Of a stretch of 64,000 bases of DNA, positions 5,078 through 58,002 are shown in pieces; position 1 is the first letter of the stretch, and each line of letters starts with the position of its first letter. A model generated the notes under the pieces. It had not been told where the DNA came from and did not search any database. It saw nothing but the letters and a program-made list of their open reading frames with translations. The stretch spans positions 2,016,001-2,080,000 of the forward strand of contig CM000208.1 in NCBI GenBank assembly GCA_000002445.1. Reading direction: 5' to 3'. A program made the position numbers and the translations under genes. Source of the DNA: Trypanosoma brucei (taxonomy: Eukaryota).

Positions 5078-6257
5078 ACACGCGTATGGCTTCAGACGAA
5101 CCGAAGAAGTTTAAAAACAATCAGACCATGCTCCGCTCCCCAGTGAAAGGGTACACCCTTCTTTAATTTCCGTGTGCAGCGGGCTCCCCCACCGCCCACC
5201 GCATTCTTGGCGTTCAGACTATACCACTGCGCGCCCTTTGCAGAACAGATCCGTCTGTGGCATTGAACAGTCTCCCTAACTTAATACAAAGATCAAAATG
5301 TGCGCACCTTTACGATTTATGCATCCCATGTGGTGAGCACCCCAAGAAGTGCTTGTGACAAGCAACCGTAAGGTGGGTTTGGGGTGTACGGGCCTCGGCA
5401 AGAGCCCAGTCATGGAAGAAAAGCATTAACTAATCCCATTTTTCGTTGGCCAATAGGGTAGCCGCGAGTTTGTTGCAGCATGTGTACGCTGGGTGGCGTG
5501 CATCTCCCCTGGCTCTCTCGTGCAGGATATCCCCCAGCCTCAAACTTTCAACAAGGCATCAAGACGCGCAGCGATTCACAGAGTTTGGGATTATCCCATC
5601 CCCGAACTAATCGGTAAATTCAACTTATCTCCTTCATCTCCTGGGTAAAGTATCGTCGGCTTCCCCTTAACACAGGGGCCCTGTATATTGCTTGTGGGAG
5701 GGGTGAATCCGTAGAAACGAAAACGCCATCCAACGTCCACGCCACCCAAACGCACTATTATGTAGAAAAATGAGCGCTGTCGCACACAAAATATGTCAAC
5801 CTTCCTAAGCAAAAAAGGAGGAGTTCAAGCTGAAGATGAAGAAACGGTGACGCAAGGAACCAGCCAAAGCCCACATAGAAAGGCATGAATATGAGTTTCT
5901 TATCAGTCGCCCCTTTCAAATCTTTTTATATACCTATTATCTACAGCGAGTAGGACTCTAGAGGCGCGCAGCACCCCCGACCCTCCGCCGTTATTTATCC
6001 CCCCCCCCTCCCTTCCGACATTTCAATTTCTTAAAGATACCCCGCTTTTACCACTATCATCTCTATTACCTGGCATTACGTTAGCCCCATAACCCACCCC
6101 CGCCAACGACCCCTTCTATTCATATATAAGGGGTTCTTCACTTTGTCTTCCATCCGGCAACTTGCAAACCATTGTTGCCCACATCATCGGAGCCGAAAAG
6201 CGAAAATAGCTAAGTGGATAAGGATTTGAAACTGGGCCAAACGTTTTCTTAATCTTG

Positions 6258-8415: not shown

Positions 8416-9540
8416 CTACTTAGGTCCCAATGTTGAGGCCAGGGAATCACATAAAGACTTCAGTTTTCTGTTCTCGTTCTCTAGTCTGTGTGTTTCATTT
8501 TGCTTTGAGCGAACTTGATGTCTAAGGTCTTTAAGTTTAAGAGTATTTTTCTCCATTTGTGAGCCCACGCTCTCTCGTAGTTCATCTGTTGTGCTCCTTA
8601 GTTGAGTTACTTTTTCTTCCAAGTGTCTCAAATACTCACGGAGGTGCTCCCTCTCCTTCTGAACGTCGGTAGACTGACAGGAAGCCACATTCATCGAAAT
8701 TGAAGCCGGAGTGCTGGCACTGTCACTCCCTTTCGTATCACACAAACACTCCGTGCTGCCGAGAGTATCCTGAAGCAGCTGGTTCGCTCTTTTTATATTT
8801 TCAAGCTCTTCTTGAAGCAAGTTTCTCTCTTTTTGTATTTTCTCTACCGCATCTAATGTCGTTTTTTCATGAATATCGCGTAACAGGGCCACATTCTTCT
8901 TTGACTCAAGGAGAATTTCATCAGTTCTTTGCTTTTTAAGCTCCATCACACCCATGATCTCGCGTTTCTTTCTTAAGCAATGTCCAAACGTCCGCTCACG
9001 CTCACGGGACAACTCACGGATTGCCTTAAGCACCTCCCTTGCTCGATTGTCCTCTTCATGGGGAACGCACTGAACGCTGTGCTTCAGTGATGCATGCAAA
9101 TCGTTAAGCATCGAAATTAGCCTCACCAGGGTAACACGTTGCAATGCATTCTTGTTCTGAGGTTCTCTGCTCAGGTCGTTTATCTGAATTACGAGGTCTT
9201 TAACTTGTGCTTCTGCCGCGTTGAGACCTGCGTCCGCTTCAGACAATTCATTCAAGTACTCGTCGCGCTCCGAATATTTGGTTGCTTCTTCCTGAAGCAC
9301 TAGCCGCTCAGTGTGCGCAATTGTATTACTTCGGATCGCTTCTTCAAGACTTTCTTCTGCTTTTTTCAAACCTTCCTTGCTTTCTCCAATTGAATTCTCT
9401 GCATCCGCTATGGAGGAAGACAAAGAGAGTATCACCTGATTGCGCTGCTGCATGACCTTCTCTTGGATCAGTAAAGCTTCCTCCAGCCCTCTAAGCTGTT
9501 CTTTAAGCTCTTCAATGGATTCCCTTTGCTTAGCGTCCAT
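8416..9540 (-). CDS. Coiled-coil protein, hypothetical (374 aa)
   Basis: Heptad-rich, E/L/K/Q-dominated sequence throughout (LKEQLRGLEEALLIQEKVMQQRNQ... LQEELENIKRANQLLQDTL). Clean long ORF in the orientation of the surrounding transcription unit. Confidence 0.45.
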   Translation of the reverse strand: MDAKQRESIEELKEQLRGLEEALLIQEKVMQQRNQVILSLSSSIADAENSIGESKEGLKKAEESLEEAIRSNTIAHTERLVLQEEATKYSERDEYLNELSEADAGLNAAEAQVKDLVIQINDLSREPQNKNALQRVTLVRLISMLNDLHASLKHSVQCVPHEEDNRAREVLKAIRELSRERERTFGHCLRKKREIMGVMELKKQRTDEILLESKKNVALLRDIHEKTTLDAVEKIQKERNLLQEELENIKRANQLLQDTLGSTECLCDTKGSDSASTPASISMNVASCQSTDVQKEREHLREYLRHLEEKVTQLRSTTDELRESVGSQMEKNTLKLKDLRHQVRSKQNETHRLENENRKLKSLCDSLASTLGPK

Positions 9541-11568: not shown

Positions 11569-13791
11569 TTACTGCCCTCCTCTAGCACGACCACGCCCCC
11601 GGCCGCGCCCGTAGTCTGCTGCGCCACGGAAGTCGCTGCCACCTCCGCGTCCAAAACCTCGTCCCCCACGCATATACCCCTGGCCCCGTCCTCCACGGAA
11701 ATCGTTGCCATGCCCGCCCTTCTCGCAGTAGTGGGCAATATTTTCCACACTTCTCGCAGTAGCCTCCACCAGGTACTGCAGGCGTGAAATGTTGCTTCTA
11801 TCCACGTGAAGGTACTGATCATCTCTGTCCCACACAGCAATGAGGGGGGTGTTATTTTCTGATATAATACCGTTAATGACATGCTTAACTGTGCTCTCAG
11901 TTATATCAAACTTCTTGGCCATAATCTCCACGGATATCGTCGCAAAGCTACGCCTGCTGTTGTAACAGAATATCTGTAGGGCTGCTTCCTTCAAACGTTG
12001 TAGAAATGTGTCTCGTGCCTCAGTACCTCTCGGCATGTTATCCCAGACCTTCATGTTTTTGATAACTTCACTTGAGCGCGCATAATCACCCAGCTTCAAG
12101 GCAGTGTAAGCAGCTGTTATTTGCTCTCTGAACTCGATAGGCTCGCCCAGGAGTGGCTGAAACTGCATCTGATTTATTACACGGTAGAAATAGCGGTGAT
12201 GGTGTGTAACCTCGTAGGGCTTTTTTGCTTCGTCCACTGTGCCGACTACAAGCGTTGAAAGCATCGTTGCAAGCTCCAGCTGACTATAAGGGATGTGGGC
12301 GTGTGGAGGCAGTAGTAAATCACGGTACCTCAACTCCTCATCCCCCTTCTCATCTTTTAAATTCGGCAGCTTTTGGCCTATCAATACCTCAGGACCTTCC
12401 CACGAATTCCATAAAGGACTCAGGAGCTCATACGCTTGCATGATGTCACCCATAATGAAGGATGCCAAACCCAGTTGTGCGACAGCTCTGTTATAGAGGA
12501 CAGAATTATGGTTGGAGTTGCACAGCTTCTCTGCCCCACCAGAGCGTCGTATGAGATCCCGTCCCTCCCGGTACTTCCCTTCTAGTCCCATTTGGTAAAC
12601 CAAATGAAGCAGAGCAAGTGATTTGGACTCGTCATCACCGATGAGGAGGAGTTGCTCGTAGAGCGATCGCACTGTCTCAATAACACTGTCACTGACGGCC
12701 TCACGCTGTCCCGGAGGCATCTTGCCAAACAAAATCTCGTGGGCCTCCTGTCTCCTTGACCCAAGGATGTCAACAAGAATCTGGCAACAAACCGCTCTGC
12801 CGCGGCTGTTATCCCTATAATAGCCGAAGAGAGCGTCAGCAATAGCCACCAGCCGGTTCTCCAAGTGAACAATCTCGATATAGTCGGATGGAATACCGTC
12901 TTTAAATTGCGTAATGCGTCGCAGGTGTTTGCTGAGACTCTGCAACAGAGCATGCAACCCACCCTTAATGAATGCATCCCTTTTGTTGAGCTTGTCGGAA
13001 AATTTGTCCGATAGCCTTATTCCGGGATTTTCAACTATCAGACCGAAGCATTCCTCCAACGTATCACAGGATTTTGCCCACGTTTTGGTACTGACGTAGA
13101 CCTCGCGATTATCCTCTTCGAGAAGGGCATCCGCAACGATACCACATGTCGTGATCTGCAGTGCCTTATACCCTTTCCTTTTGCATTCGTTAGCAAGCTT
13201 ACGGTATTTGGACGCTTTCTTACCGGTACACGTCACGGACTCCCGCAGTTGCTTTACAATGTCGTCTTCAGTTAATTCCTTTTCCGCCTCCTCCTCGTCA
13301 CCTTCATCACCATCTTCTTCGTCGTACAAACGTTCAATATCGTCCTTGTACGTCTCCATCGCTTCTTCAACAGCCTTGATCAGCCCCTTGAGGGAACGAA
13401 ACTCCTCTGGCTTTGCAAATGATTCTCTCTCGGATAGGTGTGTCTTGAGATCTGGAGTGTTTCGGAGGCACTCCAGGAATGGGAAAGGTGTCGACTGAAA
13501 TCTCCGCTTGTGGATATCCGATTTCTCGCGAAGCTCTTTGAATGATTGCTCCGCTCCGACCCATGTCCCCTGATCAACGTTGAAGTCAAAAACATCGGCG
13601 TTTGTCTGTATTTCGTTCAATGACTTCTCACGCCGAGAAAGGACGACACGCTGTTCCTCTGCAGCTTCATCATCGGTTATTTCGAACCATTTTGGATCGA
13701 TCTGGGCGGTGTTCCTTTCTACCTGATCGTCGCGCTGGATAACTTCGTCGATACTTTCGTCACTGTCACTTACGTTAAAGAAATCCGCCAT
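11569..13791 (-). CDS. EIF3C: Translation initiation factor eIF3 subunit c (PCI domain, C-terminal RGG-repeat tail), copy A
   Basis: 740 aa. PCI-type C-terminal region (FATISVEIMAKKFDITESTVKHVINGIISENNTPLIAVWDRDDQYLHVD). Tail GGRGQGYMRGGRGFGRGGGSDFRGAADYGRGRGRGRARGGQ. Length and architecture of trypanosomatid eIF3c (recall). Confidence 0.65.
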   Translation of the reverse strand: MADFFNVSDSDESIDEVIQRDDQVERNTAQIDPKWFEITDDEAAEEQRVVLSRREKSLNEIQTNADVFDFNVDQGTWVGAEQSFKELREKSDIHKRRFQSTPFPFLECLRNTPDLKTHLSERESFAKPEEFRSLKGLIKAVEEAMETYKDDIERLYDEEDGDEGDEEEAEKELTEDDIVKQLRESVTCTGKKASKYRKLANECKRKGYKALQITTCGIVADALLEEDNREVYVSTKTWAKSCDTLEECFGLIVENPGIRLSDKFSDKLNKRDAFIKGGLHALLQSLSKHLRRITQFKDGIPSDYIEIVHLENRLVAIADALFGYYRDNSRGRAVCCQILVDILGSRRQEAHEILFGKMPPGQREAVSDSVIETVRSLYEQLLLIGDDESKSLALLHLVYQMGLEGKYREGRDLIRRSGGAEKLCNSNHNSVLYNRAVAQLGLASFIMGDIMQAYELLSPLWNSWEGPEVLIGQKLPNLKDEKGDEELRYRDLLLPPHAHIPYSQLELATMLSTLVVGTVDEAKKPYEVTHHHRYFYRVINQMQFQPLLGEPIEFREQITAAYTALKLGDYARSSEVIKNMKVWDNMPRGTEARDTFLQRLKEAALQIFCYNSRRSFATISVEIMAKKFDITESTVKHVINGIISENNTPLIAVWDRDDQYLHVDRSNISRLQYLVEATARSVENIAHYCEKGGHGNDFRGGRGQGYMRGGRGFGRGGGSDFRGAADYGRGRGRGRARGGQ

Positions 13792-15212: not shown

Positions 15213-17435
15213 TTACTGCCCTCCCCTAGCACGACCACGCCCCCGGCCGCGCCCGTAGTCTGCTGCGCCACGGAAGTCGCTGCCACCTCCGCGTCCAAAA
15301 CCTCGTCCCCCACGCATATACCCCTGGCCCCGTCCTCCACGGAAATCGTTGCCATGCCCGCCCTTCTCGCAGTAGTGGGCAATATTTTCCACACTTCTCG
15401 CAGTAGCCTCCACCAGGTACTGCAGGCGTGAAATGTTGCTTCTATCCACGTGAAGGTACTGATCATCTCTGTCCCACACAGCAATGAGGGGGGTGTTATT
15501 TTCTGATATAATACCGTTAATGACATGCTTAACTGTGCTCTCAGTTATATCAAACTTCTTGGCCATAATCTCCACGGATATCGTCGCAAAGCTACGCCTG
15601 CTGTTGTAACAGAATATCTGTAGGGCTGCTTCCTTCAAACGTTGTAGAAATGTGTCTCGTGCCTCAGTACCTCTCGGCATGTTATCCCAGACCTTCATGT
15701 TTTTGATAACTTCACTTGAGCGCGCATAATCACCCAGCTTCAAGGCAGTGTAAGCAGCTGTTATTTGCTCTCTGAACTCGATAGGCTCGCCCAGGAGTGG
15801 CTGAAACTGCATCTGATTTATTACACGGTAGAAATAGCGGTGATGGTGTGTAACCTCGTAGGGCTTTTTTGCTTCGTCCACTGTGCCGACTACAAGCGTT
15901 GAAAGCATCGTTGCAAGCTCCAGCTGACTATAAGGGATGTGGGCGTGTGGAGGCAGTAGTAAATCACGGTACCTCAACTCCTCATCCCCCTTCTCATCTT
16001 TTAAATTCGGCAGCTTTTGGCCTATCAATACCTCAGGACCTTCCCACGAATTCCATAAAGGACTCAGGAGCTCATACGCTTGCATGATGTCACCCATAAT
16101 GAAGGATGCCAAACCCAGTTGTGCGACAGCTCTGTTATAGAGGACAGAATTATGGTTGGAGTTGCACAGCTTCTCTGCCCCACCAGAGCGTCGTATGAGA
16201 TCCCGTCCCTCCCGGTACTTCCCTTCTAGTCCCATTTGGTAAACCAAATGAAGCAGAGCAAGTGATTTGGACTCGTCATCACCGATGAGGAGGAGTTGCT
16301 CGTAGAGCGATCGCACTGTCTCAATAACACTGTCACTGACGGCCTCACGCTGTCCCGGAGGCATCTTGCCAAACAAAATCTCGTGGGCCTCCTGTCTCCT
16401 TGACCCAAGGATGTCAACAAGAATCTGGCAACAAACCGCTCTGCCGCGGCTGTTATCCCTATAATAGCCGAAGAGAGCGTCAGCAATAGCCACCAGCCGG
16501 TTCTCCAAGTGAACAATCTCGATATAGTCGGATGGAATACCGTCTTTAAATTGCGTAATGCGTCGCAGGTGTTTGCTGAGACTCTGCAACAGAGCATGCA
16601 ACCCACCCTTAATGAATGCATCCCTTTTGTTGAGCTTGTCGGAAAATTTGTCCGATAGCCTTATTCCGGGATTTTCAACTATCAGACCGAAGCATTCCTC
16701 CAACGTATCACAGGATTTTGCCCACGTTTTGGTACTGACGTAGACCTCGCGATTATCCTCTTCGAGAAGGGCATCCGCAACGATACCACATGTCGTGATC
16801 TGCAGTGCCTTATACCCTTTCCTTTTGCATTCGTTAGCAAGCTTACGGTATTTGGACGCTTTCTTACCGGTACACGTCACGGACTCCCGCAGTTGCTTTA
16901 CAATGTCGTCTTCAGTTAATTCCTTTTCCGCCTCCTCCTCGTCACCTTCATCACCATCTTCTTCGTCGTACAAACGTTCAATATCGTCCTTGTACGTCTC
17001 CATCGCTTCTTCAACAGCCTTGATCAGCCCCTTGAGGGAACGAAACTCCTCTGGCTTTGCAAATGATTCTCTCTCGGATAGGTGTGTCTTGAGATCTGGA
17101 GTGTTTCGGAGGCACTCCAGGAATGGGAAAGGTGTCGACTGAAATCTCCGCTTGTGGATATCCGATTTCTCGCGAAGCTCTTTGAATGATTGCTCCGCTC
17201 CGACCCATGTCCCCTGATCAACGTTGAAGTCAAAAACATCGGCGTTTGTCTGTATTTCGTTCAATGACTTCTCACGCCGAGAAAGGACGACACGCTGTTC
17301 CTCTGCAGCTTCATCATCGGTTATTTCGAACCATTTTGGATCGATCTGGGCGGTGTTCCTTTCTACCTGATCGTCGCGCTGGATAACTTCGTCGATACTT
17401 TCGTCACTGTCACTTACGTTAAAGAAATCCGCCAT
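15213..17435 (-). CDS. EIF3C: Translation initiation factor eIF3 subunit c, copy B (identical protein to copy A)
   Basis: 100% identical 740-aa translation. One synonymous difference near the stop (AGA vs AGG Arg; 11581 t vs 15225 c). Confidence 0.65.
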   Translation of the reverse strand: MADFFNVSDSDESIDEVIQRDDQVERNTAQIDPKWFEITDDEAAEEQRVVLSRREKSLNEIQTNADVFDFNVDQGTWVGAEQSFKELREKSDIHKRRFQSTPFPFLECLRNTPDLKTHLSERESFAKPEEFRSLKGLIKAVEEAMETYKDDIERLYDEEDGDEGDEEEAEKELTEDDIVKQLRESVTCTGKKASKYRKLANECKRKGYKALQITTCGIVADALLEEDNREVYVSTKTWAKSCDTLEECFGLIVENPGIRLSDKFSDKLNKRDAFIKGGLHALLQSLSKHLRRITQFKDGIPSDYIEIVHLENRLVAIADALFGYYRDNSRGRAVCCQILVDILGSRRQEAHEILFGKMPPGQREAVSDSVIETVRSLYEQLLLIGDDESKSLALLHLVYQMGLEGKYREGRDLIRRSGGAEKLCNSNHNSVLYNRAVAQLGLASFIMGDIMQAYELLSPLWNSWEGPEVLIGQKLPNLKDEKGDEELRYRDLLLPPHAHIPYSQLELATMLSTLVVGTVDEAKKPYEVTHHHRYFYRVINQMQFQPLLGEPIEFREQITAAYTALKLGDYARSSEVIKNMKVWDNMPRGTEARDTFLQRLKEAALQIFCYNSRRSFATISVEIMAKKFDITESTVKHVINGIISENNTPLIAVWDRDDQYLHVDRSNISRLQYLVEATARSVENIAHYCEKGGHGNDFRGGRGQGYMRGGRGFGRGGGSDFRGAADYGRGRGRGRARGGQ

Positions 17436-19721: not shown

Positions 19722-19775
19722 TCCACCTATACGGAAGGGAATTAATCAGAGACGATAAAGGGTAAGGGGGGGGGG

Positions 19776-19786
19776 GAAATATACTC
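19776..19786 (+). repeat. G11 homopolymer run in the intergenic region just upstream of the HAT start
   Basis: ggtaagggggggggggggaaat read directly. Confidence 0.9.
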
Positions 19787-21089: not shown

Positions 21090-21797
21090 CTAGTTATAAG
21101 TCCTTACTTTTTCCATCCAAATGCGGCACCCAAACTCTCTGTAAAGTTCCTTAAGCAGTTGAACGAAATCTATACGCGCCTTGGCGGTATAGTAAAACGT
21201 GAGTTTCTTTTTGTCAAACTGATATTCAGCATGGCGGATCTCCATATCAAATCTGTGACGATGGACTCTCCGTTGGCAGTAAGTAACGGCAATAGCTTCT
21301 TGCTCTTTCAGGTCAATAGCCCAGTAGTCCACTTCCTGTTGCGTTGCGTACCGCAAAATGTTGCCTGTTGGTCCAGAACGCTCCACATAGGTCTTGCAAG
21401 AATCCGTATTTACCCGAATGACAACACCGACATCAATTCCTCTGTCACCTTCCACAACGACATATTGGCCTTTCCCAACCAGAATAGGAGAAGAAAACTC
21501 TTTTTGATGACATTTAAACTGCACTAGGGCGCTGCATACAGGCGCCGTGGCAGGTGATGCCGGAGCTTCATCCCCGTCGTGTAAATTTTCTGGTTCGTTT
21601 AAATTTTTCGACGAAAACATTATATCCGGGAAAGCAATTGCGGTTGCGGGGAGCGTTGGTTGGATAAGGCATTTCCACCCGTATGGGTCATGGCGGATTA
21701 CGGAAGGCCTTGTCGTATGAAGAACAACGCCGGCTTTATGTTCCTTCCCATTGTGAGAAGCCTGAACGTTAGTAACATCTGCAAGTAAACTGGCCAT
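21090..21797 (-). CDS. PSP1 C-terminal domain protein (235 aa). First gene of the leftward transcription unit
   Basis: GQYVVVEGDRGIDVGVVIRV ... ILRYATQQEVD ... EFGCRIWM resemble the conserved PSP1 C-terminal region blocks. Confidence 0.5.
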   Translation of the reverse strand: MASLLADVTNVQASHNGKEHKAGVVLHTTRPSVIRHDPYGWKCLIQPTLPATAIAFPDIMFSSKNLNEPENLHDGDEAPASPATAPVCSALVQFKCHQKEFSSPILVGKGQYVVVEGDRGIDVGVVIRVNTDSCKTYVERSGPTGNILRYATQQEVDYWAIDLKEQEAIAVTYCQRRVHRHRFDMEIRHAEYQFDKKKLTFYYTAKARIDFVQLLKELYREFGCRIWMEKVRTYN

Positions 21798-23142
21798 AGC
21801 ACAGAAATTAGAGACCTACCGAAATTGATCTGGCTTTGCTTAGAAGTGTGACAAAGAGGAATAACTGGGAACGACAAACGCAAATACATAAATAAGGGAG
21901 ATACATACAAATCAGAAAACTGACATGATCCGCAGCTGCGGCACAAACACACAAAATGATCTCCCTTTCTTCTTTTTCACTCGTTAAGGGGAGGGATACT
22001 TAACTTTAGAAACAGCAATAATAAAAAATGTAAGAAAGCACTGCACATCTTTCTCTCCTTAGTCCAGCACCTTGAAACCGATACTTTCGGTACGCAATCC
22101 TGAAAATCAGTTGAATACGATCAAAATTTTTTTTAAAAAAATGGTAGCGGCACAAGCAAAACAAGTTTTGGCACGTAATGCCAGATCTAAAGTAAATTTT
22201 AAGGAAGGACTCCTGAACTATTTTGACAATTAAATCAAAAATTTTATGATGTCTCTCTTCGCAAGTAACACAGACATCACTATTTCAAAACCATCGCCCG
22301 AAAAAGAAGTGCGGCATTTCACCGAATTCTTATTGCGAGGTTCAACTAGAGAAGTTCACCGAGGAAAGAGAGCAAAAACACCCGTTTAAAACATCCTGCA
22401 AACTACATATGAAGACAGAACTGGAGCGCGATGATCCAGGGAGGGATGTCGCAAACAGCACTAGTAATGGCGGTAATAACGCCCATCAGAGTATGAGTAT
22501 GTAGTGGGAGCACCCGACTGGCTCAAAAATCCGCACATACACCCATGAAAAAATATGTACAACAAATAAGCAGCGCAGCGCAGTCCTCCCAATAAACACG
22601 GACGGAGGACAAGGTCAAAAGAGGAGACCATCTGTAACGAGAATCGGGACGGCAAACACACCGACAAAGTGAAATTGCAATCTTTTCTTTAACTAGTCGG
22701 TAAATAAACCCCGAGGGAAAACGACATGTTTCTTGCCCCTTTCCTCATTTAAGAAAAAAACGAACAGAAAACTGTGCCGCACATTAGTATCAAAATTGAG
22801 CAGCAAGCCCTAGTCGCCAACGCCACGTGACGGTCGAAAACTCCTTTTTTTTACCCTTCCTTCCGCTTAACGCTAGGTATCGAGGGATGTTTTTTGACGG
22901 CCCACAAACACCCTTTCGTGGGCTGACCGGCATTTCACACACCACCCAGTTGCGACAATCTTGCTGAGAAAGACGGCGAAGAAGGGACAGCAGCTGACAG
23001 CATGAGCAGATATACTGGCAGGTCCCCTATCTTTGGCTTCACGTTCGTCTCCTGTGAAGGTGATGTTGTTCCTGACCAACACCTCGAAAACTCTGGAGGG
23101 AACCAAGCCGGACTCGAGGTTCTGAAAGGCATTTGTCCACCA

Positions 23143-23157
23143 CCCCCCCCCCCCCCC
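23143..23157 (-). repeat. G15 run on the minus strand (C15 on plus), upstream of the leftward unit
   Basis: ccaccacccccccccccccccacacaca read directly. Confidence 0.9.
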
Positions 23158-24997
23158 ACACACATACAAACTTCCTCTTTTAATGTGCGTCGCGCGACGC
23201 TTAAGCAAATGAGGAGGGGACGCCTAGCACCCCAACTTCAAATGGCTGTGGGGCCAGCTTTTCCCAGACACTGGCCCGAGCAAGCCACGCAAACGCGGCA
23301 CCCCACTGGTGCGTTCATCCCCTTCGCACCCACCTCCGGAAACCTTCCGGAAGCGGAGGAACCTCCGGTGCGGTACCCCCTGCCGTGCTGTAACGGACCC
23401 TACTGCATCAGGTAAGTACCGAGCGAGGGGCTGCCAGGGGGCGTCGTCATTACTCTCTCGCCAACCTGTTTTACCATCGCCTCCGCCGCGTTCCCGTATT
23501 CCCCTGACACCCCCTCTGCCACTGAGTGCTTCTCACTGTCGTAATAGCAGTTCCGCAATCGTCGCAGCACGGTTGTGCGCATGATACTTCGTCAAACTCC
23601 AGAAGACGACGTTTCCGCCACTCCCCACGCCGCACAGGTAGCATTTACTACTAACGCGGGCGCGGCTAACAGACCTTCAGCGCAATGATGTAGCACCTGA
23701 GCGGGGCTCGTCCCCGGTGAATCACCGTTGTCGACGTTTGGAAACTTCTCTTTAACGATCTTCTTTGCATCACCTTCGTCTCGATGTGGCCGCATCGCCA
23801 ACTCAGTTGTAACGTTGCCCGCGCTTATTCATCTCTAGCTTTCCATCGCTATTGTAAGTTTGCTTTTTTAAACTTCCACCCCGGACCCCAGCTGCCTTTA
23901 TTTCTTTACGTGCGACCCGGATGTCGCCCGTATTCCCGCAAATCCACGGCTGCGCTCGAACCGCTCTCCATCCGAATAACCAAAGACCACAGCTACACCT
24001 TGTGTTCCTCTTTCTTTTACTCGGGAGCCAGCGAACCTTGATGCTCCGTGAGGCTTTTGGACAATGTGGGAAGATGTTTTGCCCCTCTTCATCGTCCTCC
24101 AGTGGAAAGGGCAAGCCACTCAACCGAAGACGTAGAGGTCCCCCTGCACCATTTTCGACAGTTGCTTGGCTCTGCATCAGGATGTTTGTGATACCAGTTT
24201 GCGGTTTCCCGTTTTCATAACGTTTCTCTTCCTTCCTTCCTTCCCTTGGAGACGGCAGGTTCGGTTTGGCGTCTGCCAATGTCATTGCATGTTCTGCTAC
24301 TTCCTGACCCCTGCCGGTAAGCATGTAACTTTGTTTCTTTATGCGGTTTGTCGCTGTATCGCATCTCGGGAAGAATGAAAAGCTTGCCGAGCATCCCATT
24401 GGTTTTCTAGCTTTCTCCAGCTGAAACTCAAGAGGTGAATTCAACTCAGCTCATTCATCATGGGGCGTACCCAAGCCCGTTCTCCCCCCACCTCTTTTTC
24501 ATCCTCCCGATCGCTAAGCCGTCTACACTCGTTTCTGTGCCTTTTTTAAAGGGCCACCCCGTGGAACCATCTAAAGCGCCTCGAAGGTGACAACGCAGAA
24601 CTATGTAAGAAAAGTTTTCCTTACCCTGGTGAGTTGCACCTTCTCCGGAGCAGGTCTAATGCCTCGGAAGAGGTAAGTTTGATGCGCGACTGGTCTCAAG
24701 CCGCCCTAAAATGACCCATTTTCTTCATCACATTCCTTCTCTGTGACGCTCATCAAAACATCCGAGATCCAAGTTGGTCACGTCTGTGGACAGTTTCCCC
24801 TTCCCCTATCTGCGATTTTTACCGCTAATTCATTTTTCACCATGCCACGGTGGGGGGCCCCATTTGTACCGAGTTCGCCAACCCCCTTCATGAGCATGAA
24901 AACTTCCTTCTATGTCAGTGGAACGCCCCGTTTTTTACCTGAGTTTCGTATGTTTTCAGGGTAACTAGAAATGGTACGGAGTCACTCTGAGTGCCAC

Positions 24998-25014
24998 AAC
25001 CCTAACCCTAACCC
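24998..25014. repeat. Interstitial telomere-like repeat (CCCTAA x ~2.8) inside the strand-switch region
   Basis: cacaaccctaaccctaacccttttcag read directly. Far too short to be a chromosome end. Confidence 0.8.
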
Positions 25015-25193
25015 TTTTCAGAAACTTTGCGGGCCCTGGTCTCACAGCAGCGCTGCCCACTTTTCGACTGCGCGGCGGTCTCCCGGCCCCCTTGCACAAC
25101 ACAGTAGCACCATCGGCGCTGTCAAGTATGAAAGGTGCGCCACCGGATAGTATATTCAATTTGAAGAGGCCACTAGTCAGGCTCGAATGTTGC

Positions 25194-25202
25194 GGGGGGG
25201 GG
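25194..25202 (+). repeat. G9 run on the plus strand, upstream of the rightward unit
   Basis: gaatgttgcgggggggggcatatatt read directly. Confidence 0.9.
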
Positions 25203-27954
25203 CATATATTTTAGCCATTCTCACCACCAACACCTCTGCCTCGTCCGACACATGTCTCTTCAGCCCCCACAAAAGAAGAGGCTCGTGTGCGTGACTTTTG
25301 AAGCTTACCAAAATGTGCGCACTGCGAATGGGGAAACTACCTTATCCATGTTGTTACGCTAATCATCGGAAATAACCAAGCCCATGCCGTAGGGATTGCC
25401 TGAGAACACTGGCTTTCGACAGCCTCGCCGGATGTTCCCTTCTCTGTTTCCGTTTCGCCCAGCCCTACGTCGGCATCTTGCAAATCCCTTTTTTAGTGGT
25501 GGTCAGTTGCCCATCCCCCACCATGTCACCATCATTTCCTTAGGACAACAAGCCAGTTGCAATATTGGCTGCCAGCCACTTCAATAGTTACACATGGTTA
25601 TTGTCTTTCCGAAAGGGCAAAAGCCATAATGGGTTCACCCAGTGGCAAGTATTTCTTTGCATCGAAAAGGAACAGAGTGTCCTTCACGCTCCTCTTCTTG
25701 CTCTCCATTTCGGTGGGGAATTTGCTCGAAACTTAATCAGCTTCGGCCTAGTTGTCTTGGGAACCTCTCGCAAGTGTTTCCGCGCATCTCTTGTAGGCCG
25801 AAGGGTAGGGCCTAATAGCCCTGACATCCTCGTCTGGATCATTCATTCCCCCACACGCTGTGTGGCACAATACTGTTGGCGCCGCTGCCCCTAAACAACC
25901 TGTTTCCCGTCTCCTCGGAAGACGCGTCTATGAAAGGGCCCTTCAACCATTGGATGGTGCTGTCGAATCCTCCCTGAAGGATAGGCTTAAATTGATTGCG
26001 ACACGCCTTCCCGTGTGTCGGAACTGATCCGTCCACAAAGAAAGAAGCGCCGGAAGCCGAGTTTCCTGTTCAGTGCTCCGCTCTGTCTACCCATTTTTCT
26101 GAGCAAACCGAGATCCAGCACCAGTCCTTGCGGCGCCTCGCGTGTTGGTGCGGGGTTCCGCAACATTCTGCCTACTGTTCCATCCCTCGCCGTTCCGTTG
26201 TGCAGAAAACTATCCATCCGCTTCGTGATGTGTCGGGCAAGGGAGAAGCCCTCAGACATGCGGGTAACACGGCCATGTTTAACCAACCTGAATGCACAAA
26301 CACAGTCTGCTAATGAGCCCATGGTGTTTCGTGACGTTTCTTCCACAGCTCAGGTTCCAACGAGTTATTCTGTGCTGTTGGTTGCCGAATACTACCCTGA
26401 TACCAGGTTGTTGTGTCTGCAACCGACTCTCGTGTGAGTTTTGATGCAATCCAACGGTGATCTGCCACATTAGCTTCCACACTTTCGCCGTTACCGTCAC
26501 CGACCGGAAGTGTGATGACAACGAAAAGTTAAGTCGGCCCTGGAAGACCCATAGCTCATCCAGCTTCTGCTTCCATAATCTTTGGGTACCGTAAAAATTT
26601 GTTGAACAACTTCGACTGTTGCCGGGAAACATTGATGTGCTTGTGATCGGGCTTCTCATAACGAACGTTGCCCTCGTCTGTGGCAACCCTGTTTGAAAGA
26701 AAAACGAGACCACCTCTGATAGCATTTGGCACCCCACTGGTTCCGGTGGCCATTTCCTCGTACTTTCTTTGATATGCCGAGCCTGTTATTCATTGTGCGT
26801 AACTGTTACTTCGTGCTGGGACGCCGTTACATTTTTCGTCGGTTCCAAGGAACGCAAAAGCACAGCATCGGCACCGTTGCCGGCGCCGTCACCCCCGGGG
26901 AGTAACTCCAGCGGAGGCGTGGAACGAATCTGCAGAAAAGGAATCACATTGATCCTGGCGGGCGGGGCCGCCGGGTCATGTGTGGGAGGGCGGCGGTTCG
27001 TTCGTGGCACCGGGGGAGAGAGCATTGTCATCGGGATGACATCCTTGGGGCTGCTGCGAGGAGCTTTCGGGCGCGAGAAAACCGCGCCAACCGTGCAGAG
27101 CTGTTGCGGGGGGAGGAGGCCGGCTCGTCAACTCGAGTGGGGTTGTGGCAAGTCGCTTGGGCCGTGCTCGGTGCTATCAATGGGAGAGACCAGGCGGCCG
27201 CGCCGAGCAAGAGGCGCCCCCGACTGGTAGCGAAGTTTTTCGGGGAACCGTTACCCCCTCCCCCCACTTGAGGCATGGCTGGGTTGATGGTTGTTCAGAA
27301 GATGCTTTGGCTTTGTTTACCGCCGGCGGTAGTGGGTTCTTTTGGGTGGGCGAGGTGTTCCCTTAGGGATCTCCCTTCCCTGGGATGGCGAAATATGATC
27401 GGCACACATTGCTCGAACTGGTGCCGCTGACTGGGCACGGATGTGAGTGGTGGGTCCGTGCGGCGGAGTATACAAAGGAAGAAAAGTAGTGGGTATGGGT
27501 GTAGAAAGAGCCCCCAGGCTGCCGTACTGAGTTCGCTAGTAGAGAAGGATCGCTGATCGGCCACACCTTGAGGTCGGAAGAAGCGTTAGACCTGTGCACC
27601 CGGCCCTGTAGCCGAGGCGTTTTTGAAGTATGTTCAGGTTTCCAAGTGGGGAATAGTGGCTAGTTGACCACTGTGCGTCCGGAATTGAGGTATGTTTTTT
27701 TTTTTTGTAAGTCCGCGTTGAAGTGGTCTTCATATCCACTGGTGGTCAGTTTTCCACTCTCGTCCCTGGGAGTCACCTATTGTTTTCTCCCCCTTTCTTG
27801 TGAAGGCAATTGCATGTCACCTTGCACTTGACAGTATCACTGTACAAGGGCCTAATCACTGTGTTTATTTACTATTATTTTTATTTGCATTATCATTCAC
27901 TGTCGTCGTCATTGTTTCAACAATACTTCACTAGGGTAATGGTGTCTACGGGAA

Positions 27955-29484
27955 ATGGACGTCGACAAATATAACTGTTCCGTTGTTTTTGATGATTTTA
28001 AGGTTTCCATCGAGCAATGTGATTTTTATGCGCTTGATCAGGAGATGACCGGTGTCGATAACGGTGAGCGACCGCAGTCAGGAACAATGAGTTTGACAGA
28101 GCTTTACCAAGTTTCGCGGGACGTTGTCAACCGGTACATTGCCTTCCAGCTAGGTGTAACAGTTTTCAAGCGTGTTGATGGCGGATATGAGGTTAAACCA
28201 TACAACTTTTATTTATTGAAAAGTGTGGGCGATTTTGTTGTGAATATTGAGTCACTGAAGTTCTTGGCAGACAACCACATGGATTTTCAGCGGTGGTTGG
28301 TGACAGGCATGCCGTATTGTGGTAAAGTGGACACAGGGTTGCGTGGTGATGAAGGAGGTTCTGTGTCTAGTTTAAGGAGAGGGTTGTCCGAATACCTTGT
28401 TAGTCGAATAAAAAAGTGGTATAACAGCCCGTTGGCACGGGATGGCGAGTGTATTACTTTCAAAACTGTAATATGCGAAGAAATAGAGCGGTTGACTTTA
28501 TCAAAGCTTAAAGAAGAACAAGTTTTCGTTTCATTTGAGTATGATAAGTCGAGATGCATTGGATCACCGGTGTCGTTGACAGTTCACCGTGGAACGAGTC
28601 ATTTCGCCAGCGGCCAAGGTAAGGAAAAGGCCACACCTGATTTAGAGCCGATCAAAGTATGTGGGTTTCAACATTTTTGGAAGTGCTTAACCGATTGCAA
28701 GAAACCTATTGTTGGCCACAATTTTTGGCTTGACATTATGTTTATGGTTCAAATGCACGAAGGGCCTCTCCCCGAAGATTATGATACTTACAAGAGACTC
28801 GTTCACCAACTGTTCCCGTGCGTATACGATACGAAAACACTCGGCCGCGAGGTGATAATTAACAACTTATCTGAGTCTTTTTGTCTGAAAGATTTGTACG
28901 ACAGATGCCTGGCCTCGAGGCTAAAATTGGGAGGGGCACCAGAGTTCTTTTTCCCACCAGGATTTGGTCGGTACGACCCAGACAGCCTTGAAAGTGAATG
29001 CAAAGCCCATGAAGCTGGGTACGATTCATACATGACGGGCGTGGCTTTTTCCATTTGTAGGGATTTGTACTGTAGCGGTGAAAATTCTACCTTGGATAAG
29101 TGGCGAAACATTGTTTCTGTCTACGGCAGCAATTACTATATGAATGTCAATGGCAAGGATAGTTTGAGGAGGTCTGCAACGTTTGTGGTGGAGTTTAGGG
29201 AGGAGATTGAGTATCCTTTTGGAGAGTTGCTTCTGTGTCGGGACGATGCATTCACAAATGTGGATAGGGACGTGGAGTTATTACCGAGGGACTGTATTAT
29301 ATCATATGACAACAAAGGATTATGCAGGACGATAATAGTTGTGTTCGAAGATGATATTAGCGAAGACGAGGTACAAACGCGCATTGCGAATTCGGCGCGC
29401 CGTTGGAGTGAGGTTACTAAGGAGGCAAATGCTTATAATATAGTATTTCCCGAAATACTAAGTGTTTACCGTCTTAGTGGGTAG
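27955..29484 (+). CDS. PARN-family poly(A)-specific ribonuclease (CAF1/DEDD deadenylase fold), 509 aa. First gene of the rightward unit
   Basis: N-terminal CDFYALDQEMTGV (DEDD motif I context) and central PIVGHNFWLDIMFMVQMHEGPLPEDYDTYK (compare PARN GHNMLLDVMH). Confidence 0.6.
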   Translation: MDVDKYNCSVVFDDFKVSIEQCDFYALDQEMTGVDNGERPQSGTMSLTELYQVSRDVVNRYIAFQLGVTVFKRVDGGYEVKPYNFYLLKSVGDFVVNIESLKFLADNHMDFQRWLVTGMPYCGKVDTGLRGDEGGSVSSLRRGLSEYLVSRIKKWYNSPLARDGECITFKTVICEEIERLTLSKLKEEQVFVSFEYDKSRCIGSPVSLTVHRGTSHFASGQGKEKATPDLEPIKVCGFQHFWKCLTDCKKPIVGHNFWLDIMFMVQMHEGPLPEDYDTYKRLVHQLFPCVYDTKTLGREVIINNLSESFCLKDLYDRCLASRLKLGGAPEFFFPPGFGRYDPDSLESECKAHEAGYDSYMTGVAFSICRDLYCSGENSTLDKWRNIVSVYGSNYYMNVNGKDSLRRSATFVVEFREEIEYPFGELLLCRDDAFTNVDRDVELLPRDCIISYDNKGLCRTIIVVFEDDISEDEVQTRIANSARRWSEVTKEANAYNIVFPEILSVYRLSG

Positions 29485-44658: not shown

Positions 44659-44671
44659 GGGGGGGGGGGGG
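44659..44671 (+). repeat. G13 run on the coding (+) strand in the lectin / next-gene intergenic region
   Basis: cagtcgttgggggggggggggactgc read directly. Confidence 0.9.
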
Positions 44672-56418: not shown

Positions 56419-58002
56419 ATGACTGAGCGTCGTGATAACGTTTCCCACGCACCTGATGCCATCGAGGGCCCAAACGATGGTGCTCACGCCGAGGACACAT
56501 CGCCGGGTTTCTTCTCATTCGAAAATCTTGGTGTGGCGCAGGTACAAGTCGTCGGAGGAACTCTGAACGGATATGTTATTGGGTATGTTGCTGTGTATTT
56601 GCTGCTGTACCTGACGGCAACTGAGTGCAAATTTACTACGGAGGGTGCATGTGGCGGAGCTAAGATATATGGGTGCAAATGGAGCGGCACGACATGCAAA
56701 TTCGAGAATCCCAAATGTAGTGAAGGCTCCGATCCTTCCGATTCTTGCAAAAACGAGGTGGCCTACACGTCTGTTTACAGCGGTATCTTTGCCTGCGCCA
56801 TGATCGTTGGTTCAATGGTTGGGTCGATTATAGCCGGGAAGTGCATCACTACGTTTGGACTGAAGAAATCATTCATCATTGTCTCAGTCACCTGTACTAT
56901 AGCTTGTGTTGTGGTGCAGGTAGCGATTGAGTACAATAATTACTACGCACTGTGCACTGGACGAGTGCTCATAGGTCTCGGCGTTGGTATTTTATGCTCT
57001 GTTTGCCCCATGTATGTGAATGAGAACGCACATCCCAAACTCTGCAAGATGGACGGTGTGTTGTTTCAGGTGTTCACAACACTTGGCATTATGCTTGCCG
57101 CGATGCTGGGTCTGATTTTGGACAAAACAGGAGCTAGTAAAGAAGAGGCAAACATGGCTGGGCGGTTACACGTTTTTTCAGCGGTACCGCTTGGATTGTC
57201 CGTCGCCATGTTCCTAGTGGGCATGTTCCTCCGCGAAAGCACTGCAACATTTTCCCAAGACGATGATGGTAAGGCTGATGGCGGAATGGACCCCAACGAG
57301 TATGGCTGGGGGCAGATGTTGTGGCCACTGTTCATGGGCGCTGTAACCGCTGGTACGCTGCAACTGACTGGGATCAACGCGGTAATGAACTATGCGCCGA
57401 AGATTACAGAGAACCTCGGAATGGATCCATCACTTGGCAACTTTCTGGTTATGGCATGGAATTTTGTGACATCCCTTGCGGCTATTCCACTTGCGTCACG
57501 CTTTACGATGCGTCAAATGTTTATCACCTGTTCCTTTGTTGCGTCATGTATGTGCTTGTTCCTATGTGGAATCCCAGTGTTCCCCGGTGTTGCTGAAGAA
57601 AAGGTGAAGAATGGTGTGGCAACTACTGGTATCGCCCTGTTCATAGCTGCATTTGAGTTTGGTGTTGGGTCGTGCTTCTTCGTGCTTGCACAGGACCTTT
57701 TCCCACCATCATTCCGACCTAAGGGCGGTTCGTTTGTTGTCATGATGCAGTTTATCTTTAACATCCTTATTAACCTATTGTATCCCATTACAACCGAAGC
57801 TATATCTGGTGGGCCAACTGCCAACCAGGACAAGGGACAGGCCGTTGCATTCATACTGTTTGGTTTAATTGGCTTGATTTGTTCGGTTCTGCAGTTCTTT
57901 TACTTGTATCCATATGATGCCAATCAGGACCATGAGAATGACCATGGTGGTGAGCCTGTGGAACAGAAGACATATCCCGTTGAAGCATCTCCGCGGAACT
58001 AA
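56419..58002 (+). CDS. THT1: Hexose transporter, THT1-type (527 aa, MFS sugar porter)
   Basis: MTERRDNVSHAPDAIEGPNDGAHAEDTSPGFFSFENLGVAQVQVVGGTLNGYVIGYVAVYLLLY... 527 aa with the Cys-rich first exofacial loop ECKFTTEGACGGAKIYGCKWSGTTCKFENPKCSEG. Matches T. brucei THT1 as recalled. 12-TM sugar-porter layout. Confidence 0.9.
   Translation: MTERRDNVSHAPDAIEGPNDGAHAEDTSPGFFSFENLGVAQVQVVGGTLNGYVIGYVAVYLLLYLTATECKFTTEGACGGAKIYGCKWSGTTCKFENPKCSEGSDPSDSCKNEVAYTSVYSGIFACAMIVGSMVGSIIAGKCITTFGLKKSFIIVSVTCTIACVVVQVAIEYNNYYALCTGRVLIGLGVGILCSVCPMYVNENAHPKLCKMDGVLFQVFTTLGIMLAAMLGLILDKTGASKEEANMAGRLHVFSAVPLGLSVAMFLVGMFLRESTATFSQDDDGKADGGMDPNEYGWGQMLWPLFMGAVTAGTLQLTGINAVMNYAPKITENLGMDPSLGNFLVMAWNFVTSLAAIPLASRFTMRQMFITCSFVASCMCLFLCGIPVFPGVAEEKVKNGVATTGIALFIAAFEFGVGSCFFVLAQDLFPPSFRPKGGSFVVMMQFIFNILINLLYPITTEAISGGPTANQDKGQAVAFILFGLIGLICSVLQFFYLYPYDANQDHENDHGGEPVEQKTYPVEASPRN

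What the first reader, a model, noticed from the sequence alone, without database searches (positions are those of the whole stretch)
21798..27954. Divergent strand-switch region with opposed coding-strand G-runs flanking a ~2-kb core
Genes flip from minus to plus strand across a ~6-kb gene-free interval. The longest homopolymers in this interval are strand-specific. A G15 on the minus strand (C15 at 23143-23157) faces the leftward unit, and a G9 on the plus strand (25194-25202) faces the rightward unit. In trypanosomatids the only sequence feature reported to be enriched at polycistronic transcription start regions is a run of guanines on the coding strand upstream of the start site. This arrangement therefore predicts two divergent pol II start zones: left of ~23.1 kb and right of ~25.2 kb.
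Basis: partly seen in the sequence, partly recalled or inferred. Interest (0 to 1): 0.5.

Follow-up and report, generated by a model that had tools for sequence, protein, structure and literature searches.

The report
Known trypanosome divergent transcription start region
This is the already-published divergent transcription start region between the PSP1 and PARN-2 genes on Trypanosoma brucei chromosome 10; the long G-run on the left fits a known promoter-type element, but the short G-run on the right probably lies about 2 kb upstream of the real rightward start zone.

Summary
The window is T. brucei TREU927 chromosome 10; window coordinate + 2,016,000 gives the Tb927_10_v4 coordinate.

The interval is the divergent strand-switch region between PSP1 (Tb10.6k15.2170) and PARN-2 (Tb10.6k15.2130). 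Kolev 2010 lists both as first genes of 'Divergent' pol II units. Kieft 2020 (Fig 5) uses this locus as a showcase. There, two 5'-PPP/H2A.Z-marked start sites flank the silent orphan ORF Tb927.10.8340 (23803-24399, minus). That ORF is derepressed when PNUTS/JBP3/Wdr82 or SET27 is lost.

The minus-strand G15 is part of a (TG)n-G15 composite. It matches the 10-mers most enriched on the coding strand at the 5' end of start regions (Wedel 2017) and lies inside the minus-strand GT-rich zone.

The G9 lies in a compositionally neutral core. It is 2.75 kb upstream of PARN-2 and 1.6 kb before plus-strand GT-richness begins (~26.9 kb). It is also upstream of ORF 8350, which is silent in wild type. Related trypanosomes keep their GT-rich element within 1 kb of PARN-2.

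Similar G-runs occur inside transcription units in this window.

Verdict: real, already known. The left prediction is plausible and the right one is probably displaced.

The parts
21090..21797 (-). PSP1-domain gene (Tb10.6k15.2170; by my gene count Tb927.10.8330), first gene of the leftward polycistronic unit
   Evidence: Pfam PSP1, 9e-28. Kolev Table S6 names Tb10.6k15.2170 a PSP1 homologue, and Table S14 lists it as first ORF of a 'Divergent' minus unit.
21798..23650 (-). Zone that is GT-rich on the minus strand; predicted 5' part of the leftward start region
   Evidence: G+T fraction on the plus strand is 0.37-0.48 in 150-nt windows. Keto skew is -0.08 to -0.18. There are 25 minus-strand hits to Wedel 10-mers in 21-24 kb.
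23143..23170 (-). (TG)n-G15 composite; read on the minus strand 5'-GTTTGTATGTGTGTG-G15-3'
   Evidence: It gives 14 hits to Wedel Dataset EV1 10-mers, including G10, TGTGTGTGGG and GTGTGTGGGG. It is the only G-quadruplex motif in the region. The G-run is 15/14/8 nt in the three subspecies.
23000..23750 (.). Left GC island (59-60% GC, G-rich on the minus strand)
23803..24399 (-). Orphan ORF Tb10.6k15.2160 = Tb927.10.8340; silent in wild type and derepressed when antisense termination or SPARC is lost
   Evidence: Coordinates 2039803-2040399 in Kolev Table S2. Kieft 2020 Fig 5. log2 fold change 6.8 in the set27 knockout. Homologues only in T. brucei subspecies. No Pfam match. ORF length is reached by 4-6% of shuffles.
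24999..25016 (.). Telomere-like (AACCCT)3 18-mer in the neutral core
   Evidence: It is one unit shorter in T. b. gambiense and T. b. equiperdum.
25194..25202 (+). G9 run, isolated in a compositionally neutral, slightly C-skewed context, 2,753 nt upstream of the PARN-2 ATG
   Evidence: It matches only two listed 10-mers, CGGGGGGGGG and GGGGGGGGGC. Length is 9/10/9 in the three subspecies.
26750..27500 (+). Right GC island (61% GC, GC skew +0.15 to +0.24); the GC-skew sign flips at its left edge
27036..27230 (+). Annotated ORF Tb10.6k15.2140 = Tb927.10.8350; probably not a real gene
   Evidence: Coordinates 2043036-2043230 and no detectable transcript. Its ATG is GTG in T. b. gambiense and T. 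b. equiperdum. Kieft 2020 describes it as derepressed to a lesser degree.
26900..27954 (+). Zone that is GT-rich on the plus strand, including T12 at 27695-27706; predicted rightward start zone
   Evidence: G+T fraction 0.54-0.65. The same position relative to PARN-2 is GT-rich in T. vivax, T. grayi, T. cruzi and T. theileri.
27955..29484 (+). PARN-2 (CAF1-family ribonuclease; Tb10.6k15.2130), first gene of the rightward unit
   Evidence: Pfam CAF1, 7e-73. 100% identical to XP_823070.1 of T. brucei TREU927. Kolev Table S14.

Best explanation
The interval is the divergent strand-switch region of T. brucei chromosome 10 between the PSP1 gene and PARN-2 (Tb927_10_v4 2,037,798-2,043,954). RNA polymerase II starts two polycistronic units here, from two separate start zones that face away from each other.

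The leftward zone lies in the stretch that is GT-rich on the minus strand, from about 23.7 kb leftward. The (TG)n-G15 composite at 23143-23170 is a typical GT-rich, nucleosome-excluding element of the kind that can drive directional initiation and H2A.Z deposition.

The rightward zone most likely lies at about 26.9-27.8 kb. That is the G-skewed GC island plus the GT-rich stretch with T12, within 1 kb of PARN-2. It is not next to the G9 run.

The roughly 3-kb core between them (23.7-26.8 kb) holds the orphan ORF 8340, a telomere-like 18-mer and the G9. In wild type it is kept silent because antisense or upstream transcripts from the two promoters are terminated early by the PNUTS/JBP3/Wdr82-PP1 complex and restricted by SPARC.

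Shown here or in published experiments: identity of the locus, two start sites flanking 8340, silencing and derepression of 8340, and the composition profile. Inferred: the exact position of each start zone and any causal role of either G-run at this locus.
For: **Identity of the locus**
- PARN-2 is 100% identical to the T. brucei TREU927 protein.
- The offset of 2,016,000 is confirmed by the poly(A) sites and 3'UTR lengths of three genes and by the ORF coordinates of Tb10.6k15.2160 and Tb10.6k15.2140.

**Published mapping**
- Kolev 2010 Table S14 lists both flanking genes as first ORFs of 'Divergent' units.
- No processed transcript was found between 2,021,829 and 2,046,601.
- Kieft 2020 Fig 5 shows 8340 between two start sites marked by 5'-PPP RNA-seq and H2A.Z. 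It is derepressed 4- to 13-fold on PNUTS/JBP3/Wdr82 RNAi. [quoted passage not shown] ORF 8350 on the top strand is also derepressed.
- PP1-1 depletion has the same effect on 8340.
- The set27 knockout raises 8340 by log2 6.8.

**Sequence**
- Keto skew is minus-strand GT-rich over 21.8-23.65 kb, neutral over 23.7-26.8 kb and plus-strand GT-rich from 26.9 kb.
- Hits to the Wedel 10-mers cluster on the minus strand at 21.9-23.2 kb.
- Maree 2017 reports that G/C runs longer than 7 bp are absent from nucleosomes.

**Comparison with other species**
- Coding-strand GT-richness lies within about 1 kb of the PARN-2 ATG in T. vivax, T. grayi, T. cruzi and T. theileri.
- T. theileri carries a (TG)7-G13-type composite at -250.
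Against: - I could not see the 5'-PPP RNA-seq or H2A.Z tracks themselves, only figure legends and text. The right-hand boundary therefore rests on ORF 8350 being silent and 'antisense-derepressed', on composition and on comparison with other species.
- Start regions in T. brucei are broad, so some initiation near G9 is not excluded.
- G9 does match two 10-mers enriched at start regions (13:1 and 10:1 coding to non-coding).
- Plus-strand hits to the Wedel 10-mers at 27.2-27.8 kb are few: three.
- GC skew stays 'leftward-type' up to 26.6 kb. This could also mean that bottom-strand transcription historically started near 26.8 kb.
Confidence: 0.72

Rival explanations
1. Each G-run sits just upstream of its own start zone: leftward starts left of 23.1 kb, rightward starts right of 25.2 kb, with a roughly 2-kb untranscribed core between them.
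For: - Both runs have G on the outward coding strand.
- ORF 8340 (23.8-24.4 kb) lies between the published start sites, which fits this model too.
Against: - G9 lies in sequence that is AC-rich or neutral on the plus strand, with negative GC skew.
- ORF 8350 at 27.04-27.23 kb is silent in wild type and is reported as derepressed by antisense transcription.
- In four other Trypanosoma species the GT-rich element lies within about 1 kb of PARN-2.
- Coding-strand G10 and G13 runs occur inside transcription units in this window with no mapped start.
Confidence: 0.2
2. The G-runs are slippage-prone microsatellites of non-coding DNA. Their strand follows the general excess of G over C on the coding strand, and they play no causal part in initiation at this locus.
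For: - Lengths differ between subspecies: 15/14/8 and 9/10/9. The G11 at 19766 is G6 in the other two subspecies.
- The region holds no more runs than other intergenic DNA of the window (P = 0.35).
- Similar runs lie inside transcription units.
- G10 gives only 132 10-mer positions across 199 start regions, so most start regions lack such a run.
Against: - Genome-wide, G10 is about 8-fold enriched on the coding strand and about 5- to 19-fold enriched in the first fifth of start regions.
- Synthetic GT-rich elements built from these 10-mers drive directional transcription and H2A.Z deposition.
- A (TG)n-Gn composite is also present at the orthologous unit start in T. theileri.
Confidence: 0.3
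3. There is a single bidirectional promoter in the right GC island (26.8-27.5 kb). Bottom-strand transcription of the PSP1 unit starts there and reads through the whole core.
For: - GC skew keeps the leftward sign from 20 kb up to about 26.6 kb, and the cumulative skew minimum is at about 27 kb.
- Kieft 2020 maps the 5' end of the bottom-strand antisense RNA next to the top-strand start site.
Against: - Kieft 2020 describes two divergent start sites flanking 8340, with 8340 silent in wild type and antisense RNA attenuated with distance.
- Kolev 2010 found no processed transcript in the core.
- TA skew and the Wedel 10-mer hits mark a separate leftward zone from 23.7 kb.
Confidence: 0.08
4. The GC-rich core is a degenerate mobile element, a pseudogene, a tRNA or other RNA-gene cluster, or centromeric repeat DNA.
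For: - The core is GC-rich and specific to T. brucei.
- The orthologous position in T. cruzi, T. theileri and L. major carries three tRNA genes.
Against: - No tRNA.
- No Rfam match at gathering score, and none with E-value below 1.7 in the permissive scan of 21.5-28.1 kb.
- No direct, inverted or tandem repeats of note.
- No Pfam domain in any of the 13 ORFs of 89 aa or more.
- ORF 8340 has no paralogues.
Confidence: 0.03

Closest known systems
Divergent strand-switch regions / divergent transcription start regions of T. brucei (Siegel 2009 from my own knowledge; Kolev 2010; Wedel 2017)
   Same: Divergent flanking units, a flip of coding-strand G/T skew, no canonical promoter, and a silent gap between two start zones. 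This very locus is in the published list of divergent units.
   Different: Nothing essential. It is larger than the orthologous boundary in T. cruzi (about 1.2 kb) and lacks the tRNA genes found there.
GT-rich promoter elements (Wedel et al. 2017, EMBO J, PMC5579346)
   Same: The minus-strand (TG)n-G15 composite is made of the top-ranked coding-strand 10-mers and lies on the coding strand of the leftward unit.
   Different: Promoter activity of this particular element has not been tested. The G9 matches only two listed 10-mers and is not embedded in GT-rich sequence.
Bidirectional start sites with PJW/PP1-dependent early termination of antisense RNA (Kieft et al. 2020, PMC7055916; Kieft et al. 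2024, PMC11229358) and SPARC-defined promoters (Staneva et al. 2022, PMC9566855)
   Same: This locus is the worked example. Tb927.10.8340 is silent in wild type and derepressed on loss of PNUTS, JBP3, Wdr82, PP1-1 or SET27.
   Different: None. The published work does not discuss the G-runs.
tRNA-associated boundaries of pol II units in trypanosomatids
   Same: The orthologous PARN-2 boundary in L. major, T. cruzi and T. theileri carries a conserved tRNA Pro/Met/Leu cluster.
   Different: T. brucei has no tRNA gene at this boundary.

Membership tests
Trypanosomatid divergent strand-switch region with pol II start zones | Flanking protein-coding genes point away from each other | tested here: met
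   Every ORF treated as a gene left of 21.8 kb is on the minus strand, and every one right of 27.95 kb is on the plus strand. Pfam identifies PSP1, MOZ_SAS and eIF-3c on the left, and CAF1 and a sugar transporter on the right.
Trypanosomatid divergent strand-switch region with pol II start zones | The strand asymmetry (G over C and T over A on the coding strand) flips within the interval | tested here: met
   GC skew flips at about 26.7 kb and TA skew at about 23.5 kb. Keto skew is negative up to 23.65 kb and positive from 26.9 kb.
Trypanosomatid divergent strand-switch region with pol II start zones | 5'-triphosphate RNA ends and H2A.Z/H4K10ac enrichment on both sides | not testable with these tools
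   Reported for this locus in the text and legends of Kolev 2010 (Table S14) and Kieft 2020 (Fig 5). The tracks themselves were not available.
Trypanosomatid divergent strand-switch region with pol II start zones | No pol I or pol III gene explains the boundary | tested here: met
   No tRNA. No Rfam family at gathering score, and none with E-value below 1.7 in the permissive scan of 21.5-28.1 kb.
GT-rich promoter element (Wedel 2017) | A cluster of the published coding-strand-enriched 10-mers on the strand of the downstream unit | tested here: met
   Left side: 25 minus-strand hits in 21-24 kb, 14 of them at 23143-23170. Right side is weak: 2 hits at G9 and 3 at 27.25-27.79 kb.
GT-rich promoter element (Wedel 2017) | Drives orientation-dependent transcription and H2A.Z deposition in a reporter assay | not testable with these tools
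   This needs the luciferase and ChIP assays of Wedel 2017 applied to these fragments.
G-quadruplex-forming sequence | Four or more G-tracts of 3 nt or more separated by loops of 1-7 nt | tested here: inconclusive
   The minus-strand G15 satisfies the pattern and is the only such motif in the interval. The G9 does not. Whether the structure forms was not tested.
Retroelement remnant, pseudogene or centromeric repeat | Reverse transcriptase, endonuclease or other domains, or repeated DNA | tested here: not met
   No Pfam domain in 13 ORFs. No meaningful repeats. ORF 8340 has no paralogues.

The most novel reading that the evidence does not exclude
T. brucei replaced an ancient boundary marked by three tRNA genes (Pro/Met/Leu upstream of PARN-2, kept from Leishmania to T. 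cruzi and T. theileri) with about 4 kb of lineage-specific GC-rich DNA. The orphan ORF Tb927.10.8340 inside it is a gene being born from promoter-antisense transcription. Its expression would be gated by PJW/PP1- and SPARC-dependent termination. The isolated G9 or the telomere-like 18-mer would act as a cryptic upstream start or a base-J/termination seed.
Probability: 0.08. Interest if true: 0.5.

Novelty: already known. Interest (0 to 1): 0.15.

Why it matters
The finding itself adds little. The locus is a published divergent start region, and enrichment of coding-strand G-runs at such regions is also published.

The re-analysis gives one caution: a single G-run is a poor predictor of where pol II starts. 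In this 64-kb window, two of four coding-strand G-runs lie inside transcription units. The G9 is probably about 2 kb from the start zone it was meant to mark. The broader GT-skew boundary and the comparison with other species are better guides.

A small evolutionary point is that a boundary marked by three tRNA genes in Leishmania, T. cruzi and T. theileri has become a tRNA-free 6-kb divergent region in T. brucei. I did not find this described, though I did not search for it.

Tried and rejected
**Look-ups that failed**
- Exact look-ups of the window's own PARN-2 protein and of P0001 found no contig. The subspecies orthologues did work.

**Searches of the sequence that found nothing**
- tRNA, Rfam at gathering score and at permissive E-value, direct and inverted repeats, and tandem repeats found nothing relevant in the region.
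- blastn found no non-coding similarity between the T. brucei region and the T. vivax, T. cruzi, T. theileri or T. grayi loci.
- tblastn found no PSP1, HAT3 or 8340 within 10 kb upstream of PARN-2 in those species.

**Literature searches that failed**
- I looked for published start-region or peak coordinates in the supplements of Maree 2017, Staneva 2021/2022 and Kieft 2020. None gave coordinates for this locus.
- Siegel 2009 and Cordon-Obras 2022 are not held. The original G-run statement and the Cordon-Obras motifs could therefore not be checked or scanned.
- Searches of three papers for a quotable G-run statement failed.

**Ideas considered and rejected**
- Retroelement or centromere origin of the core was rejected, as set out under the rival explanations.
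- The telomere-like repeat as a significant element was rejected. The 12-nt ancestral form is close to chance expectation by my own estimate, and the 18-nt form in strain 927 looks like a one-unit slippage.

Full report
**Where the window comes from.**
The 509-aa CAF1-family ORF at 27955-29484 is 100% identical to 'ribonuclease, putative' XP_823070.1 of Trypanosoma brucei brucei TREU927, on a 4,054,025-bp contig. Close relatives name it PARN-2.

Kolev et al. 2010 (PMC2936537) give poly(A) sites and 3'UTR lengths for three genes on the left. These place window position 1 at Tb927_10_v4 2,016,001:
- PSP1 homologue Tb10.6k15.2170: poly(A) site 2,036,777, UTR 313 nt, stop codon at window 21090.
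- Tb10.6k15.2180 and Tb10.6k15.2200 fit the same offset.

With that offset, two annotated 'hypothetical' ORFs fall inside the interval:
- Tb10.6k15.2160 (minus, 2,039,803-2,040,399) is window 23803-24399.
- Tb10.6k15.2140 (plus, 2,043,036-2,043,230) is window 27036-27230.

Strand and order match the genes that Kieft et al. call Tb927.10.8340 (bottom strand) and Tb927.10.8350 (top strand). The new-style numbers for PSP1 (8330) and PARN-2 (8360) are my inference from gene order.

**The observation.**
- C15 is at 23143-23157 and G9 at 25194-25202, as stated.
- Genes are all on the minus strand to the left (PSP1, a MYST acetyltransferase, two eIF3c-like genes). They are all on the plus strand to the right (PARN-2, a HECT ligase, a hexose-transporter array).
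- Runs of nine or more G are far above shuffle expectation: 18 nonamer matches against 0.38.

Four qualifications apply.
- T12 at 27695-27706 is longer than G9.
- All five G/C runs of 9 nt or more in the window are intergenic. The interval holds two against 1.24 expected from the other intergenic DNA (P = 0.35).
- Coding-strand G10 (5999) and G13 (44659) lie inside transcription units, where Kolev lists no start.
- Both focal runs vary in length between T. b. brucei, T. b. gambiense and T. b. equiperdum: 15/14/8 and 9/10/9.

**What is already published about this exact locus.**
- Kolev 2010 Table S14, based on 5'-triphosphate RNA-seq, lists Tb10.6k15.2170 (minus) and Tb10.6k15.2130 (plus) as first ORFs of 'Divergent' pol II units.
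- The two internal ORFs are in Kolev's list of ORFs with no detectable transcript. No novel transcript lies between 2,021,829 and 2,046,601.
- Kieft et al. 2020 (PMC7055916, Fig 5) use this region as their representative example.
   - It rises 4- to 13-fold on RNAi of PNUTS, JBP3 or Wdr82.
   - The 5' end of the bottom-strand antisense RNA lies next to the top-strand sense start site.
   - ORF 8350 on the top strand is derepressed to a lesser degree by the mirror-image antisense transcription.
- PP1-1 depletion has the same effect on 8340 (PMC11229358).
- In Staneva et al. 2022 (PMC9566855) the 8340 orthologue is up by log2 6.8 in set27-null cells. Upregulated genes there typically lie within 2.5 kb of a SPARC peak.

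**Are G-runs a known start-region feature?**
Yes. In Wedel et al. 2017 (PMC5579346, Dataset EV1), G10 is the top 10-mer. It occurs 132 times on the coding strand against 17 on the non-coding strand in the 5'-most fifth of 199 start regions. The other fifths have 7-27 occurrences.

The next-ranked 10-mers include GTGTGTGTGG, TGTGTGTGGG, GTGTGTGGGG, CGGGGGGGGG and GGGGGGGGGC.

Synthetic GT-rich elements built from such 10-mers drive orientation-dependent transcription and H2A.Z deposition, and they are depleted of nucleosomes. Maree 2017 reports that G/C runs longer than 7 bp are absent from nucleosomes.

With only 132 G10 positions across 199 regions, and a single G15 contributing six of them, most start regions cannot have such a run.

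**Anatomy of the interval.**
Fine-scale composition gives a nearly symmetrical layout:
- 21.8-23.65 kb is GT-rich on the minus strand (plus-strand G+T fraction 0.37-0.48).
- 23.0-23.75 kb is a GC island (59-60% GC, G on the minus strand).
- 23.7-26.8 kb is a compositionally neutral core (about 50% GC, slightly C-skewed on the plus strand).
- 26.75-27.5 kb is a second GC island (61% GC, GC skew +0.15 to +0.24).
- From 26.9 kb onward the plus strand is GT-rich (0.54-0.65).

The GC-skew sign flips at about 26.7 kb and the TA skew at about 23.5 kb.

Read on the minus strand, the C15 locus is 5'-GTTTGTATGTGTGTG-G15-3'. That is a (TG)n-Gn composite. It accounts for 14 of the 25 minus-strand hits to the Wedel 10-mers in 21-24 kb, the densest minus-strand cluster in the window. 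It is also the only G-quadruplex motif in the interval.

The G9 matches just two listed 10-mers. It sits in plus-strand AC-rich or neutral sequence, 1.6 kb before plus-strand GT-richness begins and 2,753 nt upstream of the PARN-2 ATG.

**What the core is not.**
- No tRNA, Rfam family, repeat or tandem repeat.
- No Pfam domain in any ORF of 89 aa or more.
- ORF 8340 has homologues only in T. brucei subspecies ('T. brucei spp.-specific protein').
- Its 198-codon length is reached in 4-6% of shuffles.
- It carries an in-frame 30-bp indel between subspecies.
- The ATG of ORF 8350 is GTG in the other two subspecies.

Both are best read as chance ORFs exposed by antisense transcription.

**Comparison with other species.**
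I fetched the PARN-2 loci of T. vivax, T. cruzi, T. theileri, T. grayi and L. major.

In the four Trypanosoma species the coding strand is GT-rich within about 1 kb upstream of the PARN-2 ATG (G+T 0.59-0.76). In T. brucei the equivalent stretch is -950 to -250 (0.60-0.66), and everything from -2000 to -1400 is neutral.

T. theileri carries (TG)7-GGGNG10 at -265 to -242 on the coding strand. This is the same composite as the T. brucei leftward element. By analogy, the rightward start zone of T. brucei lies at 26.9-27.8 kb, not at G9 (-2761).

L. major, T. cruzi and T. theileri also share a tRNA-Pro(TGG)/Met(CAT)/Leu(AAG) cluster 0.4-1.8 kb upstream of PARN-2. T. brucei lacks it. The left flank is not syntenic either.

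**Conclusion.**
The interval is a real and already characterised divergent start region.

The right-hand prediction, starts just right of 25.2 kb, is probably about 1.5-2 kb too far left.
- ORF 8350 is silent in wild type and described as derepressed by antisense transcription.
- Plus-strand GT-richness begins only at about 26.9 kb.
- The related species keep their GT-rich element within 1 kb of PARN-2.

I could not view the 5'-PPP or ChIP tracks, so this last point is inference (confidence about 0.65-0.7).

Whether either G-run is causal at this locus is untested. Length polymorphism and similar runs inside transcription units show that a G-run alone is neither necessary nor sufficient.

Noticed in passing
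L004 9258-9620; L005 8437-8920; L008 8186-8547 (plus tRNA-Cys at 9337-9408); compare window 21798-27954: A tRNA-Pro(TGG, minus)/Met(CAT, plus)/Leu(AAG, plus) cluster lies 0.4-1.8 kb upstream of PARN-2 in T. cruzi, T. theileri and L. major. It is absent from T. brucei brucei, gambiense and equiperdum. An ancient boundary marked by pol III genes has become a tRNA-free 6-kb divergent region, and synteny is broken on its left side.
   Followed up: partly
L005 9715-9760: T. theileri has (TG)7-GGGNG10 on the coding strand about 240 nt upstream of the PARN-2 ATG. This is the same (TG)n-Gn composite as the T. brucei minus-strand element at window 23143-23170.
   Followed up: partly
window 24999-25016: A telomere-like (AACCCT)3 18-mer sits in the silent core. 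T. b. gambiense and T. b. equiperdum have one unit fewer. It is probably slippage of a chance 12-mer. Any link to base J or termination is untested.
   Followed up: partly
window 5999-6008, 19766-19776, 44659-44671: There are three other long G/C runs. C10 and G13 put G on the local coding strand but lie inside transcription units, with no start listed by Kolev 2010. G11 is on the non-coding strand and is only G6 in the other subspecies.
   Followed up: partly
window 23248 and 24225: Strain 927 lacks 45 bp in the left GC island; by eye this looks like one copy of a diverged tandem duplication, which I did not test. It also lacks 30 bp, in frame, inside ORF 8340, relative to T. b. gambiense and T. 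b. equiperdum.
   Followed up: partly
window 11569-13791 and 15213-17435 (minus); 56419-62959 (plus): There are two tandem 740-aa ORFs, of which the one scanned (15213-17435) is eIF3c-like. There is also a tandem array of three 527-529-aa ORFs; the one scanned (56419-58002) is a sugar (hexose) transporter. An identical G4-type C-rich motif occurs in both 740-aa copies (12558 and 16202).
   Followed up: no
L003 and L006: The T. vivax and T. grayi contigs end 876 and 443 nt upstream of PARN-2. The T. theileri locus has large runs of N upstream. The region upstream of PARN-2 therefore seems hard to assemble in several species.
   Followed up: no
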